Positions 56,769-60,796 of a stretch of DNA of 64,000 bases are shown here, piece by piece. The notes under the pieces were generated by a model. The model had not been told where the DNA came from and did no database searches. It was given only the letters and a program-made list of their open reading frames with translations. Location of the stretch: sequence record MT446416.1. One strand, given 5' to 3'. Numbering within the stretch: the stretch's first letter is position 1; every line of letters begins with the position of its first letter. Made by a program: the position numbers and the translations under genes. This DNA is from Escherichia virus TH47.

Positions 56769-56797
56769 ATTATTGCAGTACTGCTATACTTTGTCAA
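56769..56797 (-). promoter_or_regulatory. promoter TTGACA-17-AATAAT
   Basis: Perfect -35, weaker -10; AGTACT in the spacer. Confidence 0.4.
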
Positions 56798-56960
56798 TAG
56801 TTTTTTATTAATAGTTTTAGTACTGGCAGTACATCCACCAGCAGATAGTTACTCACCGTTATTAACTATATATTTTAGATACACCTATGCACCCGGTGGG
56901 CTAGTTTTTGTCTATGCGTATATAATAGCAAAGGGACTTACCGGAGTCAATCCCTTTTTT
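56790..56960. repeat. intergenic repeat module, copy 1
   Basis: Shares ...atgcacccggtgggct...gcgtatataatagcaaagggacttaccggagtcaatccctttttt with copies near 58.0 and 60.7 kb. Confidence 0.55.
56922..56950 (-). promoter_or_regulatory. upstream tandem promoter P1, TTGACT-17-TATTAT, inside repeat module
   Basis: Minus strand TTGACT-ccggtaagtccctttgc-TATTAT, conserved in all three long repeat copies. Confidence 0.45.
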
Positions 56961-56967
56961 ATTCTTT

Positions 56968-57225
56968 TTATGAAATATCTTCGATGTAGTCGGCCCATTT
57001 CATTTTTTCAGTACTGTCAATGGCTACCGGATTATTTGGATCAAACCATTCACCATTACCGCAATACATACCCACGGCTACGGTTTTATAGCCATCCTGT
57101 GCCGTATTCCATGACATTGCACGATAGATATGGCCTTTAATTGGTGTTAGTACTGGTAACGTTTTATGGTCTTCTACGTAGGCCATAGCTTGAGGATTTA
57201 CCCGATATTGTGTGAACTGTTCCAT
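56968..57225 (-). CDS. hypothetical protein
   Basis: ORF with AAGGGGAAA SD. Confidence 0.55.
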   Translation of the reverse strand: MEQFTQYRVNPQAMAYVEDHKTLPVLTPIKGHIYRAMSWNTAQDGYKTVAVGMYCGNGEWFDPNNPVAIDSTEKMKWADYIEDIS

Positions 57226-57253
57226 TATGTTTCCCCTTGTAGTTAGTAAAGTT

Positions 57254-57282
57254 ATTACATCAGTACTATCAAGCTATGTCAA
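57254..57282 (-). promoter_or_regulatory. promoter AGTACT-a-TTGACA-N17-TGTAAT
   Basis: Perfect -35 flanked by AGTACT, second AGTACT in spacer. Confidence 0.45.
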
Positions 57283-57301
57283 TAGTACTGAAATAAAACT
57301 T

Positions 57302-57526
57302 TTAGATTAGATTATTGATACCTTCGATGGTAGACTCGCTTTCTTCTTTCTCCCATTGTCGGTAGTACTTCCATGTTTCATGATATGTGGCGATTAGTTC
57401 ATCTTTTTGATCCTGGTTACATGCCAGTACTGAATCACGGTGAGCGGTGTTATAGATAGAATCGAATGATTTCTTCTCTTCTGCCAGGTTAGCTACTTCC
57501 CGCATCAGTTCATCAAAGTTAGCCAT
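57302..57526 (-). CDS. hypothetical protein
   Basis: ORF with AAGGAG SD. Confidence 0.55.
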   Translation of the reverse strand: MANFDELMREVANLAEEKKSFDSIYNTAHRDSVLACNQDQKDELIATYHETWKYYRQWEKEESESTIEGINNLI

Positions 57527-57573
57527 TTTAATACTCCTTTTAGTGGGGGAGGATATCTCCCCCTATGCAAAAC

Positions 57574-57601
57574 ATTATACGCTTTATTCAGTACTATGCA
57601 A
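57574..57601 (-). promoter_or_regulatory. promoter TTGCAT-16-TATAAT with AGTACT boxes and 5' UTR hairpin
   Basis: Hairpin GGGGGAG/CTCCCCC at 57545-57563 between -10 and SD. Confidence 0.55.
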
Positions 57602-57857
57602 GTACTTTTTTCATATAAACATTAAATTCTACACCGCCGTAACCTTCCACGATGATATGTTTTGCGTTATCACGCTTGCACATAGTGAAACCGTTGTTGA
57701 TATGTTCTGCATTTTCCAGGGCTACATCACCGATAGCGGCACATACAGCACTAATAACAGTATTCCGCAAAGTACTGGTATCATTAGCGGTCATAGTAGT
57801 TTGCAGTACTACGTTGTCATATACGTGTGCATTGATAGTGATTTCAATAGCGTTCAT
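57594..57857 (-). CDS. hypothetical protein, 87 aa (start trimmed)
   Basis: Track ORF includes the UTR hairpin; ATG at 57855-57857 (MNAIEITINA) follows AGGAG. Confidence 0.55.
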   Translation of the reverse strand: MNAIEITINAHVYDNVVLQTTMTANDTSTLRNTVISAVCAAIGDVALENAEHINNGFTMCKRDNAKHIIVEGYGGVEFNVYMKKVLA

Positions 57858-57909
57858 GGTGTATCTCCTGGACTTGAGGGGAAACCATTTCCCCCTCTCG
57901 ATGTAAAAC

Positions 57910-57937
57910 ATTATACGCGAATTGCGATAGTATGCAA
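57910..57937 (-). promoter_or_regulatory. promoter P2 TTGCAT-16-TATAAT with 5' UTR hairpin
   Basis: Hairpin GAGGGGGAAA/TTTCCCCTC at 57876-57898. Confidence 0.55.
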
Positions 57938-57939
57938 GT

Positions 57940-58065
57940 ACTTTTTTAAAATAGTTTTCAGTACTGAATACTTATATAATAGATACATTTATGCACCCGG
58001 TGGGTTAGATTGTTTTCATGCATATATAATAGCAAAGGGACTGACCTGAGTCAATCCATTTTTTT
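57940..58065. repeat. intergenic repeat module, copy 2
   Basis: ...atgcacccggtgggttag...catatataatagcaaagggactgacctgagtcaatccattttttt. Confidence 0.55.
58026..58054 (-). promoter_or_regulatory. upstream tandem promoter P1, TTGACT-17-TATTAT
   Basis: Same architecture as 56922-56950. Confidence 0.45.
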
Positions 58066-58073
58066 AATCTTTT

Positions 58074-59304: not shown

Positions 59305-59700
59305 TTAGATAACCTGTCGGCGTTTACTGAATACAGTAACACTGTTTCCCTTGCGGTCGTGGCGGATCTCTCGTTGGTTGCGAATCAGTACACTTGGACG
59401 CTTCAAGTTAGCCAGATGATCCGCGTGAGTCCATGCATTCGAATTTACGGAAACTTTAATATCAGAACCCGCGACGAATTCATCTTGAGCGTTAAGAATT
59501 GCCGCCAGTTCTTCAGCTTGTTTTTGTTCTGCTGCTGTCAGTACTGGCTCAGGTGAATTCACAATATCAGAGATTTCTTTGAACTGTACGGCCCAGCGTT
59601 GGCCTTTCGGTGCATCTTTGCCCATGTCTTTAAATAGCTCACCTTCCTCGCGTGCAACAATACGGGCAGCTTCACGGGTAGCGTAGAATTTAGTAATCAT
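59305..59700 (-). CDS. hypothetical protein, 131 aa
   Basis: Start at fourth Met (MITKFYATREAA), ATG 59698-59700, AGGA 9 nt upstream. Confidence 0.55.
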   Translation of the reverse strand: MITKFYATREAARIVAREEGELFKDMGKDAPKGQRWAVQFKEISDIVNSPEPVLTAAEQKQAEELAAILNAQDEFVAGSDIKVSVNSNAWTHADHLANLKRPSVLIRNQREIRHDRKGNSVTVFSKRRQVI

Positions 59701-59744
59701 GGTATACATCCTATTAGTTAAGTTAGTACTACAAGCGAGAGTCT

Positions 59745-59773
59745 ATTATAAAGTACTATCTGTGTAATGTCAA
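59745..59773 (-). promoter_or_regulatory. promoter TTGACA-17-TATAAT
   Basis: Perfect -35 and -10, AGTACT flanking. Confidence 0.5.
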
Positions 59774-59795
59774 ATAGTACTTTAAATGGATTCTA

Positions 59796-60119
59796 TTACA
59801 TGTCTTTCTTACGTTTTACATCGTAGTAGCGAACTGTTATTTCTTTGTTAATCTCTTTTTCGATGCGGTGAATAACTTTTTCTTTCGGGTTGAAACCTAT
59901 AACGGTTTCTTTAATGATCTCCAAACCAGTGTATTCGCCTTGCGTACCGTAACCGTATGTAAAGGTTTCGTGTCCCAGGTCTTCCCAGCGGTCGCCAATT
60001 AACGCAGACACGTAGCAAGAGTGGTAAGTATTGCCGTTCCGATCAGTCCAGCGATTAACTTTAATGTCAAAGGAGGTTACAATTTTCAGTTCTACTTTCT
60101 GGGTAAGGATCATAGCCAT
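59796..60119 (-). CDS. hypothetical protein
   Basis: ORF downstream of promoter and UTR hairpin. Confidence 0.55.
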   Translation of the reverse strand: MAMILTQKVELKIVTSFDIKVNRWTDRNGNTYHSCYVSALIGDRWEDLGHETFTYGYGTQGEYTGLEIIKETVIGFNPKEKVIHRIEKEINKEITVRYYDVKRKKDM

Positions 60120-60175
60120 TTTTATTTCTCTCTTTTAGTTAGGAGGGGAACCATTCCCCTCACTTGATGTAATCT

Positions 60176-60203
60176 ATTATACAGTACTAAGATACTTTGT
60201 CAA
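60176..60203 (-). promoter_or_regulatory. promoter TTGACA-16-TATAAT with 5' UTR hairpin
   Basis: Hairpin GGGGAA/TTCCCC at 60145-60159. Confidence 0.55.
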
Positions 60204-60206
60204 TAC

Positions 60207-60482
60207 TTAAGTATTGTAAATGTCGTGAATAGTGATAAAGTTTTTACGACCGTAAACCTGTAAATCGGTATCAATGTAGTGTTTATCTAGTACATCCTCG
60301 ACGCTTAACGCGGTGTCGTGGATATCTTCGTAGAATTGAGGATCTACAATCTTGCTTAAGTCATCCGGTGTTAACTTATCGTTAAGCCATTGCACCGCCT
60401 GGATATCTGCTTCACGTTTCCAGTCTTGCAGGTTAGTAGTCAGTACTTGCTCGATTTCGTTAGCTGTCAGTAGAATCCGCAT
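60207..60482 (-). CDS. hypothetical protein
   Basis: ORF with AAGGAAA SD. Confidence 0.55.
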   Translation of the reverse strand: MRILLTANEIEQVLTTNLQDWKREADIQAVQWLNDKLTPDDLSKIVDPQFYEDIHDTALSVEDVLDKHYIDTDLQVYGRKNFITIHDIYNT

Positions 60483-60515
60483 TTTAATGTTTCCTTATCA
60501 GTGGTTGATGTAAGT

Positions 60516-60543
60516 ATTATACTCGTTTACTTTCTATTGTCAA
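60516..60543 (-). promoter_or_regulatory. promoter TTGACA-16-TATAAT
   Basis: Perfect hexamers, no UTR hairpin. Confidence 0.5.
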
Positions 60544-60631
60544 TCTTTTTATCAGGGGAGTTTTTCGTATGTCTTACTCCTGGACTACTTAACGGGGTTA
60601 CTTGTTTCGTTCCCCCGTCCTGATGTAAAAC

Positions 60632-60659
60632 ATTATACTTGATTTTAAGTACAATGCAA
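60632..60659 (-). promoter_or_regulatory. promoter P2 TTGCAT-16-TATAAT driving a leader that lacks a start codon
   Basis: Followed by hairpin CGGGGG/CCCCG and an AGGAG, but no ATG where sister modules have one. Confidence 0.4.
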
Positions 60660-60664
60660 GTACT

Positions 60665-60788
60665 TTTTAAAAATAGTTTTCAGTACTAGCCACCAGCAAA
60701 TAATAGATACATTTATGCACCCTGTGGGCTGATTTGTTTCTATGCGTATATAATAGCAAAGGGACTTACCGGAGTCAATCCCTTTTTT
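60665..60788. repeat. intergenic repeat module, copy 3
   Basis: ...atgcaccctgtgggctga...gcgtatataatagcaaagggacttaccggagtcaatcccttttttaa. Confidence 0.55.
60750..60778 (-). promoter_or_regulatory. upstream tandem promoter P1, TTGACT-17-TATTAT
   Basis: Same architecture as the other P1 copies. Confidence 0.45.
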
Positions 60789-60796
60789 AATTATTT

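What the first reader, a model, noticed from the sequence alone, without database searches (positions are those of the whole stretch)
56790..60790. Repeated 120-170 bp intergenic module with tandem promoters P1 and P2
Three copies (about 56790-56960, 57940-58065, 60665-60788, plus a partial one near 62700) share near-identical sequence including a TTGACT-17-TATTAT promoter (P1), a conserved GCACCC(G/T)GTGGG element and, about 100 bp downstream, the TTGCAT-16-TATAAT promoter (P2). The P1-to-P2 interval has no ORF and could encode a short RNA, or the pair could be a regulatory switch.
Basis: seen in the sequence. Interest (0 to 1): 0.5.

Follow-up and report, generated by a model that had tools for sequence, protein, structure and literature searches.

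The report
Promoter cassette launching conserved phage RNA
Four copies of a compact terminator-plus-promoter cassette in the terminal repeat of a giant E. coli phage each launch the same short, structured RNA; I found no description of this motif, it is conserved across all RaK2-like jumbo phages, and its job is still unknown.

Summary
The repeat is real: three strong copies and one weaker copy, all on the minus (gene-sense) strand, inside the roughly 21-kb direct terminal repeat of a PBECO4/121Q-type jumbo coliphage. The first is a PeSL-like composite: an intrinsic terminator hairpin whose stem contains the -35 (TTGAC), a 17-bp spacer and TATTAT. It is followed by a conserved 5' RNA of about 50 nt: an optional co-varying stem-loop with an A-rich loop, an almost invariant CCC-NNN-GGG hairpin, and UGC-N5-UGUAUCUAU. 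The second, P2, is one member of a commoner early-promoter repeat. The RNA element recurs 3 to more than 10 times per genome in every RaK2-like genus and nowhere else, and nearly always 12-34 nt after a sigma-70 -10. It never lies directly in front of a start codon: the median distance from -10 to start is 162 nt, against 30 nt for box-less copies of the same promoter. When antisense to genes, about half the copies run into a terminator roughly 40 nt after the box. Covariation supports an RNA on the P1 strand. It is most likely an autonomous immediate-early small RNA or 5' tag read by a protein. Rfam and the literature gave no match.

The parts
56930..56957 (-). Module A terminator hairpin (AAAGGGAUUGAC-UCCG-GUAAGUCCCUUU) that ends the upstream gene 57225..56968. 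The -35 of P1 lies inside its 5' arm.
   Evidence: -14.8 kcal/mol, z -4.0 as sense RNA, against -7.9 kcal/mol, z -0.5 as plus-strand RNA. G17 annotates the orthologous hairpin as an ARNold terminator.
56922..56950 (-). Module A promoter P1: TTGACT (56950-56945), 17-bp spacer, TATTAT (56927-56922). Predicted start near 56915 (inferred).
56872..56921 (-). Module A box RNA, short form: A-rich single strand, stem-loop 2 (56901-56891), UGC-N5-UGUAUCUAA.
   Evidence: (48.7 bits, E 2e-7)
56769..56797 (-). Module A second promoter (class A): TTGACA-17-AATAAT, serving gene 56715..56383.
58034..58061 (-). Module B terminator hairpin, downstream of the weak kinase-like gene 58658..58074.
   Evidence: -11.9 kcal/mol, z -2.8 as sense RNA; -7.3 kcal/mol, z -1.1 as plus-strand RNA; terminator scan
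58026..58054 (-). Module B promoter P1: TTGACT-17-TATTAT. Predicted start near 58019 (inferred).
57976..58025 (-). Module B box RNA, short form; stem-loop 2 at 58005-57995. The G17 ortholog has the long form, so this copy differs inside the module.
   Evidence: (46.5 bits)
57910..57937 (-). Module B P2: TTGCAT-16-TATAAT, followed by the 5' hairpin GAGAGGGGGAAAUGGUUUCCCCUC, a Shine-Dalgarno site and ATG at 57857. A synteny break against G17 falls at 57879-57950.
   Evidence: (D2/D7/D13)
60758..60785 (-). Module C terminator hairpin, downstream of the 49-aa gene 60946..60797.
   Evidence: -14.6 kcal/mol, z -4.1 as sense RNA; -7.5 kcal/mol, z -1.0 as plus-strand RNA
60750..60778 (-). Module C promoter P1: TTGACT-17-TATTAT. 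Predicted start near 60743 (inferred).
60700..60749 (-). Module C box RNA, short form; stem-loop 2 at 60729-60719.
   Evidence: 48.9 bits. This segment is 95-97.5% identical in most Asteriusvirus relatives, against 90.6-93.1% for the surrounding 5 kb.
60632..60659 (-). Module C P2: TTGCAT-16-TATAAT. PBECO4 carries an extra 224-bp promoter plus 54-aa ORF cassette between the box RNA and this promoter (junction at window 60678-60680).
62751..62779 (-). Module D promoter: TTGACA-17-CATAAT, with no terminator hairpin. Predicted start near 62744 (inferred).
62694..62750 (-). Module D box RNA, long form: stem-loop 1 GACG-AGAA-CGUC (62739-62728) and stem-loop 2 (62723-62713). It lies upstream of the DksA/TraR zinc-finger gene 62455..62198. 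The surrounding 317 bp (62467-62782) finds no match in the fetched stretch of G17.
   Evidence: (29.9 bits, E 0.0017)

Best explanation
Each copy is a compact composite. An intrinsic terminator hairpin ends the upstream early gene. Built into that hairpin and its U-tract is a consensus host sigma-70 promoter, P1: an A-rich UP-like tract, TTGAC inside the stem, a 17-bp spacer and TATTAT. This part is a PeSL-type terminator/promoter cassette. These phages also use it, without any box, about 30 nt in front of ordinary genes. In the terminal repeat, P1 instead launches a conserved RNA of about 50 nt. That RNA has an optional stem-loop 1 (any stem sequence, A-rich loop), an almost invariant 4-bp hairpin R-CCC-(A/U)NN-GGG-U, and then GC, five mostly purine bases and USURUCURU. 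I commit to this reading: the P1-plus-box unit is an autonomous, immediate-early, multi-copy gene for a small non-coding RNA. Its invariant hairpin is a recognition site for a protein, so the RNA works as a decoy or adaptor in trans, or as a tag on the 5' end of P1 transcripts. It is not the leader of the next gene, which brings its own promoter (P2). Shown: the repeat, promoter geometry, terminator strandedness, RNA covariation, restriction to this clade, obligate position next to a promoter, separation from start codons, and terminator-bounded antisense copies in relatives. Inferred: that P1 fires, the start sites (about 56915, 58019, 60743, 62744), where the RNA ends in the window copies, that a protein is the ligand, and action in trans. 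My probabilities: RNA-level function of a P1-driven element about 0.75; autonomous sRNA or decoy about 0.35-0.4; cis tag such as antitermination or stabilisation about 0.2.
For: The window holds four copies and chance predicts none. The roughly 95-nt core is conserved at DNA level in Asteriusvirus, Alcyoneusvirus, Mimasvirus, the Munch/fENko-Kae01 group and Erwinia phage Hallingskeid. Antisense units there stay syntenic while flanking proteins have fallen to 35-41% identity. Promoter: TTGAC is present in every instance collected, and the spacer is 17 bp in 90 of 98. Terminator: sense-strand folding energies are -11.9 to -14.8 kcal/mol (z -2.8 to -4.1), against about -7.5 kcal/mol (z about -0.5 to -1.1) on the other strand. 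The stems co-vary (GGGG/CCCC, GTAC/GTAC, GTGG/CCAT), and ARNold terminators are annotated on them in G17 and GAP32. RNA structure: in 94 distinct sequences 97.6% of cells pair. All 4 pairs of stem-loop 1 show compensatory changes. The closing pair of stem-loop 2 is A-U in 47 and G.U in 47. The covariation score is 0.299 against 0.118 in shuffles (0 of 500 as high) and at most 0.055 when slid. An alignment-free test found 52 of 52 long leaders forming a hairpin, with 21 different stems; 40 of 52 have at least 4 bp, against a mean of 14.5 and maximum of 25 in shuffles. Position: 107 of 134 unique boxes have a strict TTGAC-N17-19 -10 promoter 12-34 nt upstream, and most of the rest have one by eye. 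Autonomy: box-containing composites have their next start codon a median 162 nt after the -10 (0 of 56 within 60 nt), while box-less ones have it at 30 nt (60 of 63 within 60 nt). Of 39 sense copies, 24 are followed by another sigma-70-type promoter. Of 16 antisense copies, 8 meet a terminator hairpin starting 37-41 nt after the box and a ninth at 21 nt. Clade restriction: IMG/VR hits for promoter plus box come only from contigs of 345-378 kb plus one 109-kb fragment. Bacterial genomes give only scattered single hits, in numbers I estimate chance would produce.
Against: No transcript data exist for any of these phages, so P1 activity and RNA ends are unproven. The four window copies have no convincing terminator between the box and P2, so here the RNA would need processing or would run on into the next gene. 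Single-sequence folds are not unusually stable (z -0.4 to -1.3). The three main window copies are the short form, without stem-loop 1. The stem of stem-loop 2 is nearly invariant, with only 2 compensatory cells in 94 sequences, so its pairing rests mainly on the A-U/G.U alternation and on loop variability. The alignment used was fitted to the model. No ligand or target was identified.
Confidence: 0.6

Rival explanations
1. Cis-acting processive antitermination or transcript-fate tag, working like lambda nut or HK022 put. The nascent box hairpin recruits a factor to RNA polymerase that started at P1. P1 transcripts then read through the many hairpin terminators of the terminal repeat, while P2-type transcripts stay terminator-limited.
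For: The box is obligately promoter-proximal. It consists of one or two small hairpins right after the start site. The region is dense in intrinsic terminators. Sense copies have no terminator before the next gene. A DksA/TraR-type RNA polymerase-binding protein is encoded just downstream of module D.
Against: None of 125 leaders has a boxA, a lambda-type boxB or an ops sequence; 3 have a loose ops match. The hairpins are far smaller than those of put. About half the antisense units stop at a terminator at a near-fixed distance, 37-41 nt after the box, which suits a defined small RNA better. Genes after the box always keep their own promoter. No candidate N-like protein was sought or found.
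Confidence: 0.2
2. The cassettes are purely PeSL-type recombination and insulation elements. They terminate, restart and shuffle small genes. The stretch after P1 is conserved only through gene conversion among copies and has no RNA function.
For: Synteny breaks against G17, PBECO4 and fEgEco12 fall at cassette edges. They occur at 56966-56969, 57879-57950 and 60678-60680. The segment 61775-62180 is flanked by a 47-nt promoter repeat. The stretch 62467-62782 containing module D has no match in the fetched part of G17. The hairpin/promoter part occurs widely without the box, including in unrelated phage contigs. This matches the published PeSL description (PMC2839356, PMC4122927).
Against: Gene conversion within one genome cannot explain a 13-nt core that stays almost unchanged across genera whose neighbouring proteins are 35-41% identical. 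It also cannot explain compensatory changes in stem-loop 1, or the strict exclusion of the box from promoters that sit directly in front of genes.
Confidence: 0.1
3. The box is a DNA operator. A phage or host repressor binds the double-stranded CCC-N3-GGG palindrome and its tail at about +20 to +45, and shuts off P1-type promoters later in infection.
For: The core is invariant and sits at a near-fixed distance from the -10. CCCNNNGGG is an inverted repeat.
Against: The spacing between half-sites changes from 3 to 4 nt in some copies. Conservation is asymmetric: the 5' flank is A or G roughly equally, while the 3' partner is T in 106 of 108. The adjacent stem-loop 1 co-varies, which a double-stranded DNA site does not require. 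The tail is not symmetric.
Confidence: 0.08
4. The functional product is on the plus strand. It would be either an antisense RNA of about 85 nt ending at the hairpin plus T-run, or the mini-ORF ATG CAC CCN GTG GGN stop (MHPVG).
For: On the plus strand the hairpin is followed by TTTTTT, and copies A-C share the 5-codon frame with synonymous differences.
Against: The hairpin is weak on the plus strand (-7.3 to -7.9 kcal/mol, z -0.5 to -1.1) and strong on the minus strand. G.U pairs in stem-loops 1 and 2 would become A.C mismatches. I saw no recurring plus-strand promoter in other genera. The ATG disappears whenever the N5 segment is GGAGG-like. The A-run is explained as P1's UP-like tract and is also present in copies without a hairpin.
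Confidence: 0.02
5. Transcription-primed replication origins, like the T4 oriF/oriG R-loop origins. P1 transcripts would prime DNA synthesis at the A+T-rich stretch that follows.
For: The copies are numerous, each pairs a promoter with A+T-rich downstream DNA, and they lie in the terminal repeat of a T4-superfamily phage.
Against: Nothing in that model needs small conserved RNA hairpins or terminator-bounded antisense units. I ran no composition-skew or other direct test.
Confidence: 0.04

Closest known systems
PeSL (promoter-early stem-loop) cassettes of T4-type phages (Arbiol et al. 2010, PMC2839356; Comeau et al. 2014, PMC4122927)
   Same: Both are composites of a terminator stem-loop, an A+T-rich tract and a near-consensus sigma-70 early promoter with a 17-bp spacer. 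Both occur in many copies between small genes of unknown function in hyperplastic regions. Gene-content differences between close relatives break at the cassettes in both. The nt-1-type stem-loop consensus A3-4 G3-loop-C3 T3-4 is close to the AAAGGG...CCCTTT seen here.
   Different: The host is a RaK2-like jumbo phage rather than a member of the T4-like group in which PeSLs were described. Here the -35 lies inside the stem and the U-tract doubles as the promoter spacer. The subset in the terminal repeat adds a conserved structured RNA of about 50 nt, which is not part of the PeSL definition. Mini-circle formation was not tested.
Lambda nut (boxA/boxB) and HK022 put antitermination RNAs
   Same: All are small RNA hairpin signals close to early sigma-70 promoters in regions with terminators, and act (or would act) on the nascent transcript.
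   Different: None of 125 leaders has a boxA or a lambda-type boxB. The hairpin here has 4 bp and a 3-nt loop, against boxB's 5-bp stem and pentaloop, and put's two large stem-loops (from my knowledge of those systems). Some copies are terminator-bounded, stand-alone units.
Bacterial and phage small RNAs with Rho-independent terminators
   Same: The gene-antisense units in relatives have a promoter, a conserved 5' region and an intrinsic terminator with a U-tail. I estimate the resulting RNA at about 95-110 nt. They are syntenic across genera.
   Different: The four window copies lack such a terminator. The conserved part is a hairpin rather than a single-stranded seed. No target or chaperone is known, and no Rfam family matches.
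Highly transcribed non-coding RNAs in the terminal repeat of the related jumbo phage PA5oct (PMC7318152)
   Same: Both are non-coding transcription units inside the direct terminal repeat of a jumbo phage related to RaK2. In PA5oct the RNAs are abundant from early infection.
   Different: The PA5oct RNAs are 236-451 nt. That paper reports no sequence similarity to anything outside PA5oct and MIJ3. I did not compare them directly with the box RNA.

Membership tests
PeSL composite terminator/promoter cassette | Stable stem-loop acting as terminator of upstream transcription | tested here: met
   Sense-strand hairpins fold at -11.9 to -14.8 kcal/mol, z -2.8 to -4.1. Stems co-vary across genera. 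ARNold terminators are annotated on them in G17 and GAP32. Termination itself has not been measured. Copy D has no hairpin.
PeSL composite terminator/promoter cassette | Near-consensus sigma-70 early promoter with an A+T-rich tract upstream | tested here: met
   TTGACT-17-TATTAT. The spacer is 17 bp in 90 of 98 instances. The 15 nt upstream are 88% A+T.
PeSL composite terminator/promoter cassette | Multiple copies among small genes of unknown function in a hyperplastic region, with indels between close relatives at the cassettes | tested here: met
   Four copies lie in 6 kb of small genes. Synteny breaks fall at 56966-56969, 57879-57950, 60678-60680, 61775-62180 and 62467-62782. Several of these breaks are at class-A (P2-type) promoters rather than at P1.
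PeSL composite terminator/promoter cassette | Recombination between cassettes yields mini-circles | not testable with these tools
   This needs inverse PCR on infected cells, as in PMC2839356.
PeSL composite terminator/promoter cassette | Cassette consists only of terminator plus promoter, directly serving the next ORF | tested here: not met
   The window copies carry an extra conserved RNA box and are never within 60 nt of a start codon. Box-less copies of the same composite are.
Lambda-type nut site | boxA (CGCTCTTA-like) followed by a boxB hairpin with a 5-bp stem and pentaloop | tested here: not met
   0 of 125 leaders match boxA, its core, or a GCCCT-N5-AGGGC hairpin. The hairpin here has 4 bp and a 3- or 4-nt loop.
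RfaH ops element | GGCGGTAG core in the leader | tested here: not met
   0 of 125 match exactly; 3 of 125 match the loose form GCGGTAG.
Any curated Rfam family or tRNA | Covariance-model or ARAGORN match | tested here: not met
   There were no matches at gathering score in the window. At a permissive threshold there were only chance-level hits, E 0.19-2.4. No tRNA or tmRNA was found.
Terminator-bounded small RNA gene | Own promoter, conserved non-coding body, and an intrinsic terminator defining the 3' end | tested here: inconclusive
   This is met by about half of the gene-antisense units in relatives: 8 of 16 have a terminator starting 37-41 nt after the box and one has it at 21 nt. It is not met by the four window copies, which have no terminator before P2.

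The most novel reading that the evidence does not exclude
The box RNA is a new class of immediate-early, multi-copy phage RNA. It would be made from up to a dozen or more gene copies per genome, doubled by the terminal repeat, as soon as the DNA enters the cell. Its invariant CCC-NNN-GGG hairpin would capture or re-programme a conserved enterobacterial or phage protein. It could act as a decoy, sponge or adaptor, or as a nut/put-like tag that makes P1 transcripts ignore terminators.
Probability: 0.3. Interest if true: 0.8.

Novelty: new variant of a known kind. Interest (0 to 1): 0.6.

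Why it matters
RaK2-like jumbo phages are being isolated widely for therapy against E. coli, Klebsiella, Salmonella and plant pathogens, yet the papers I read say little about how their early programme is controlled. The roughly 20-kb terminal repeat consists largely of small genes annotated as hypothetical. This analysis gives that region a grammar with three parts: ordinary early promoters with a 5' hairpin, PeSL-type terminator/promoter composites, and a clade-specific structured RNA that I found in no database or paper. The RNA is under stronger constraint than the neighbouring proteins I compared. A conserved, multi-copy, early RNA is a concrete and cheap experimental handle on host takeover, using a Northern blot, a pull-down or a deletion. 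The work also extends the PeSL cassette-shuffling idea beyond the T4-like phages in which it was described.

Tried and rejected
1. Plus-strand small RNA ending at the hairpin plus T-run: rejected by strand-asymmetric folding and by G.U pairs.
2. Plus-strand mini-ORF MHPVG: the start codon is not conserved outside the window copies.
3. A third hairpin formed by the N5 segment and CUAU: it pairs no better than shifted registers.
4. Leader-RBS pairing as a translational switch, prompted by UGUAUCU being complementary to AGAUACA at the gene after copy B: cognate and non-cognate energies are equal, p = 0.49.
5. Rfam at gathering and at permissive thresholds, and a tRNA/tmRNA scan: nothing found.
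6. Single-sequence thermodynamic stability of the P1-P2 interval: not significant.
7. A host counterpart that the RNA might mimic: bacterial genomes gave only scattered hits, in numbers I estimate chance would produce.
8. boxA, boxB and ops motifs: absent.
9. Literature searches for the motif, for transcriptomes of this phage group and for the AGTACT enrichment: nothing relevant.
10. Plain MAFFT plus RNAalifold recovered only stem-loop 2, because stem-loop 1 is missing in about 40% of copies and was misaligned. This was resolved with an anchored script and a covariance model.

Full report
WHAT THE WINDOW IS. The 5 kb around the finding is 90-93% identical to Asteriusvirus jumbo coliphages of about 350 kb, such as fEgEco12, PBECO4 and 121Q. 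All genes from 55.5 to 64 kb lie on the minus strand. fEgEco12 has a 20,993-bp direct terminal repeat (DTR) confirmed by restriction digests (PMC13070987). Mapping that record and the start of the G17 record onto the window puts the DTR boundary at about 55,462. The whole finding therefore lies inside the DTR, in a run of small early genes.

THE OBSERVATION. The repeat is real. The 24-nt core and the 33-nt hairpin/P1 segment each occur three times where none is expected. A covariance model scan with filters off finds four copies and nothing else in the 64 kb. All copies are on the minus strand. Read in that direction, each has four parts in order. First comes an A-tract. Second is a hairpin (GGGAUUGAC-UCCG-GUAAGUCCC) followed by UUUGC. 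Third is TATTAT. Fourth is a conserved stretch of about 50 nt containing CCCAC(C/A)GGGUGC and UGUAUCUAU. P2 (TTGCAT-16-TATAAT) is present in copies B and C. Copy A has TTGACA-17-AATAAT further away, and copy D has only a good -10. P2 belongs to a different and commoner repeat: an early promoter followed by a GAGGGG...CCCCUC 5' hairpin. That repeat also occurs at 56326, 57552 and 61146 without any P1 module.

CONSERVATION ELSEWHERE. A 121-nt query from copy C finds 2-8 places per genome in 67 phage records. These span Asteriusvirus, Alcyoneusvirus (K64-1, RaK2) and Mimasvirus (GAP32, CBB). They also include the Munch/PHA46/fENko-Kae01 group and Erwinia phage Hallingskeid. Several of these records annotate the region as the DTR. 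Asteriusvirus records that include both repeat copies show 8 places instead of 4, so all four blast-detectable copies lie in the DTR. A promoter-plus-box pattern scanned over 2.9 million IMG/VR contigs hits only contigs of 345-378 kb and one 109-kb fragment. The box-plus-tail pattern in 596 Gb of bacterial genomes gives only scattered single hits in unrelated taxa. I estimate the pattern at about 32 bits, which predicts a few hundred chance hits. The element is therefore specific to this clade.

ANATOMY, PART 1: A PeSL-TYPE TERMINATOR/PROMOTER. Across genera, TTGAC is present in every instance collected, the spacer is 17 bp in 90 of 98 unique instances, and the -10 is TATTAT, TATAAT, TATACT or CATAAT. 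TTGAC forms part of the 5' arm of a hairpin with a UUCG or UCCG loop. The outer stem co-varies (GGGG/CCCC, GTAC/GTAC, GTGG/CCAT, GAGG/CCUU). As gene-sense RNA the window hairpins fold at -14.8, -11.9 and -14.6 kcal/mol (z -4.0, -2.8, -4.1). As plus-strand RNA they reach only about -7.5 kcal/mol (z -0.5 to -1.1), because sense G.U pairs become C.A mismatches. G17 and GAP32 annotate these hairpins as ARNold terminators or stem-loops. The hairpin is thus the terminator of the preceding gene, and its U-tract doubles as the promoter spacer. This matches the published PeSL cassettes of T4-type phages: a terminator stem-loop, an A+T-rich tract and a sigma-70 early promoter (PMC2839356, PMC4122927). 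Searching for the hairpin/promoter half alone found 51 further copies, none with the box. Many lie elsewhere in the same RaK2-like genomes and others in unrelated phage contigs of 4-250 kb. The composite is therefore a generic part.

ANATOMY, PART 2: THE BOX RNA. Downstream of the -10, 108 unique instances give the consensus AA-N4-YUA-R-CCCA-YA-GGGUGC-RKARR-USURUCURU. The CCCA and GGGUGC positions each score 1.5-2.0 bits.

Stem-loop 2 (R-CCC / GGG-U) is paired in 99.7% of cells. Its closing pair is A-U in 47 and G.U in 47 sequences, and its loop is 3 or sometimes 4 nt.

About 60% of copies have the long form, with an extra stem-loop 1 just upstream. All 52 long leaders form a hairpin, using 21 different stem sequences around an A-rich loop (AGAACAA, AGAUAA, GCGAAA). 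40 of 52 have at least 4 bp, against a mean of 14.5 and a maximum of 25 in shuffles.

On a covariance-model alignment of 94 distinct sequences, all four pairs of stem-loop 1 show compensatory changes. The covariation score is 0.299, against 0.118 in shuffles (0 of 500 as high) and at most 0.055 for slid registers. That alignment is fitted to the model, so it leans towards the structure. The test does not depend on it.

Window copies A, B and C are the short form, with only the A-rich strand. Copy D is the long form (GACG-AGAA-CGUC). A third hairpin is not supported. Single-sequence folding of the window intervals is unremarkable, and nothing in Rfam matches.

CONTEXT RULES THAT BEAR ON FUNCTION.
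(a) The box is obligately promoter-proximal. 107 of 134 unique boxes have a strict TTGAC-N17-19 -10 promoter 12-34 nt upstream, and most of the rest have a promoter by eye.
(b) The box never directly precedes a gene. Box-containing composites have their next start codon a median 162 nt after the -10 (0 of 56 within 60 nt). Box-less composites have it at 30 nt (60 of 63 within 60 nt).
(c) Of 39 gene-sense copies, 24 are followed 40-79 nt after the box by another sigma-70-type promoter, with no terminator in between. That is the window's P1-P2 arrangement.
(d) Of 16 gene-antisense copies, 8 run into a terminator hairpin starting 37-41 nt after the box, and a ninth at 21 nt. I estimate the resulting RNAs at about 95-110 nt. 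These units are syntenic between K64-1, fENko-Kae01 and Hallingskeid, although the flanking proteins are only 35-41% identical.
(e) Leader-RBS complementarity is no better for cognate than for non-cognate pairs.
(f) No boxA, lambda-type boxB or ops motif is present.

CASSETTE SHUFFLING. Compared with G17, PBECO4 and fEgEco12, synteny breaks fall at these places:
- The 5' edge of module A (56966-56969), where the relatives have an extra gene of about 290 bp.
- P2 of module B (57879-57950), where G17 has an extra 1.3 kb.
- Inside module C (60678-60680), where PBECO4 has a complete promoter plus 54-aa ORF cassette between the box and P2.
- Around a GNAT gene (61775-62180), which is flanked by a 47-nt promoter repeat and has no match at that place in G17 or PBECO4, though fEgEco12 carries it.
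- Around module D (62467-62782), which finds no match in the fetched stretch of G17.
Window copy B has a short-form leader where its G17 ortholog has a long form, so the two differ inside the module. This is the behaviour described for PeSLs.

INTERPRETATION. Shown: a terminator/promoter composite and an RNA-level conserved element on the P1 strand, specific to this clade, present in many copies, always at the 5' end of a transcription unit and never used as the direct leader of a gene. Inferred: P1 fires on host sigma-70 polymerase at the start of infection. The product is a small RNA or 5' tag, and its invariant hairpin is read by a protein. I favour an autonomous small RNA acting as a decoy or adaptor (about 0.35-0.4) over a cis antitermination or stability tag (about 0.2). 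The reasons are context rules (b) to (d). The weak point is that the window copies lack a clear 3' end. A DNA-operator reading (0.08) is disfavoured by the variable loop length, by the asymmetric conservation and by the co-varying neighbouring hairpin. A 'recombination cassette only' reading (0.1) cannot explain invariance across genera or the compensatory changes.

COMPARISON AND NOVELTY. The hairpin/P1 part works like a PeSL and meets most of its defining features, in a phage group where I found no prior description of PeSLs. The box RNA is not part of that definition and matches no Rfam family. It also appears in no paper found by motif or phage-group searches. PA5oct, a distant relative, has abundant non-coding RNAs in its DTR (PMC7318152). 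That is a parallel in location only. Overall verdict: a new variant of a known kind, carrying a candidate new RNA motif. Interest 0.6.

Noticed in passing
whole window; gaps at 39780-48216 and 50637-55592: The palindrome AGTACT occurs 220 times where about 17-21 are expected. It is densest in the DTR, at about one per 130 bp. It is absent from two blocks of 8.4 kb and 5 kb. The same 15-21-fold excess is seen in the DTR loci of every RaK2-like genus examined. The motif often sits immediately upstream of the -35 (AAAAAGTACTTGAC) and of the -10 (AGTACTGTATAAT), but it also lies inside ORFs. Neither the CBB paper nor a literature search mentions it.
   Followed up: partly
56326-56403, 57552-57629, 57888-57965, 60610-60687, 61146-61223 and other intergenic sites in 56-64 kb: There is a second, commoner repeat family: a TTGACA or TTGCAT promoter with a 16-bp spacer and TATAAT, then GUUUUACAUC, then a 5' hairpin GAGGGG...CCCCUC, a Shine-Dalgarno site and ATG. 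It sits in front of most small DTR genes. It is conserved in other genera, and synteny breaks between relatives fall on it.
   Followed up: partly
61775-62180: A 118-aa GNAT acetyltransferase gene is flanked by a 47-nt direct promoter repeat (61728-61774 and 62154-62200, 91% identical). It has no match at that place in G17 or PBECO4, though fEgEco12 carries it. It looks like a single-gene cassette gained or lost by recombination between promoter repeats.
   Followed up: partly
about 55462: This is the inferred boundary of the direct terminal repeat. The G17 record starts at the position matching window 55462, and the fEgEco12 repeat end (record position 20,993) maps to about 55,465.
   Followed up: partly
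50000-55400: Just outside the DTR lies an array of about 20 paralogous ORFs of roughly 65-75 aa on the minus strand, seen as several diverged direct-repeat families. The array is almost free of AGTACT.
   Followed up: no
62630-62695; also L006 about 14080-14150: Clusters of TGATCA / TTGATCAA, which contain GATC, lie between the module D box RNA and the DksA/TraR zinc-finger gene. Similar clusters occur downstream of a box RNA in Erwinia phage Hallingskeid. They could be an operator or a Dam/SeqA-related site.
   Followed up: no
L005 936/1135; L007 947/1146; L002 976-1109; L003 3757-3890: In relatives, two P1-plus-box units face each other about 70-200 bp apart in a non-coding stretch, within about 1 kb of the record start in fENko-Kae01, Munch and CBB and near 3.8 kb in GAP32. 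Their transcripts would overlap and be complementary. The equivalent place lies beyond the end of this window.
   Followed up: partly
L007 15355-15950; L006 13567-14093: HNH endonuclease genes sit immediately next to a box unit in Salmonella phage Munch and in Erwinia phage Hallingskeid. In Munch the sequence after the box hairpin is altered (GGGCGGGGUAGUCCGUCC). This could reflect homing into, or next to, the conserved box.
   Followed up: no
L029 8790-8954 (PBECO4): A 54-aa ORF with its own promoter lies between the box RNA of module C and P2 in PBECO4. It is absent from the window, G17 and fEgEco12.
   Followed up: partly
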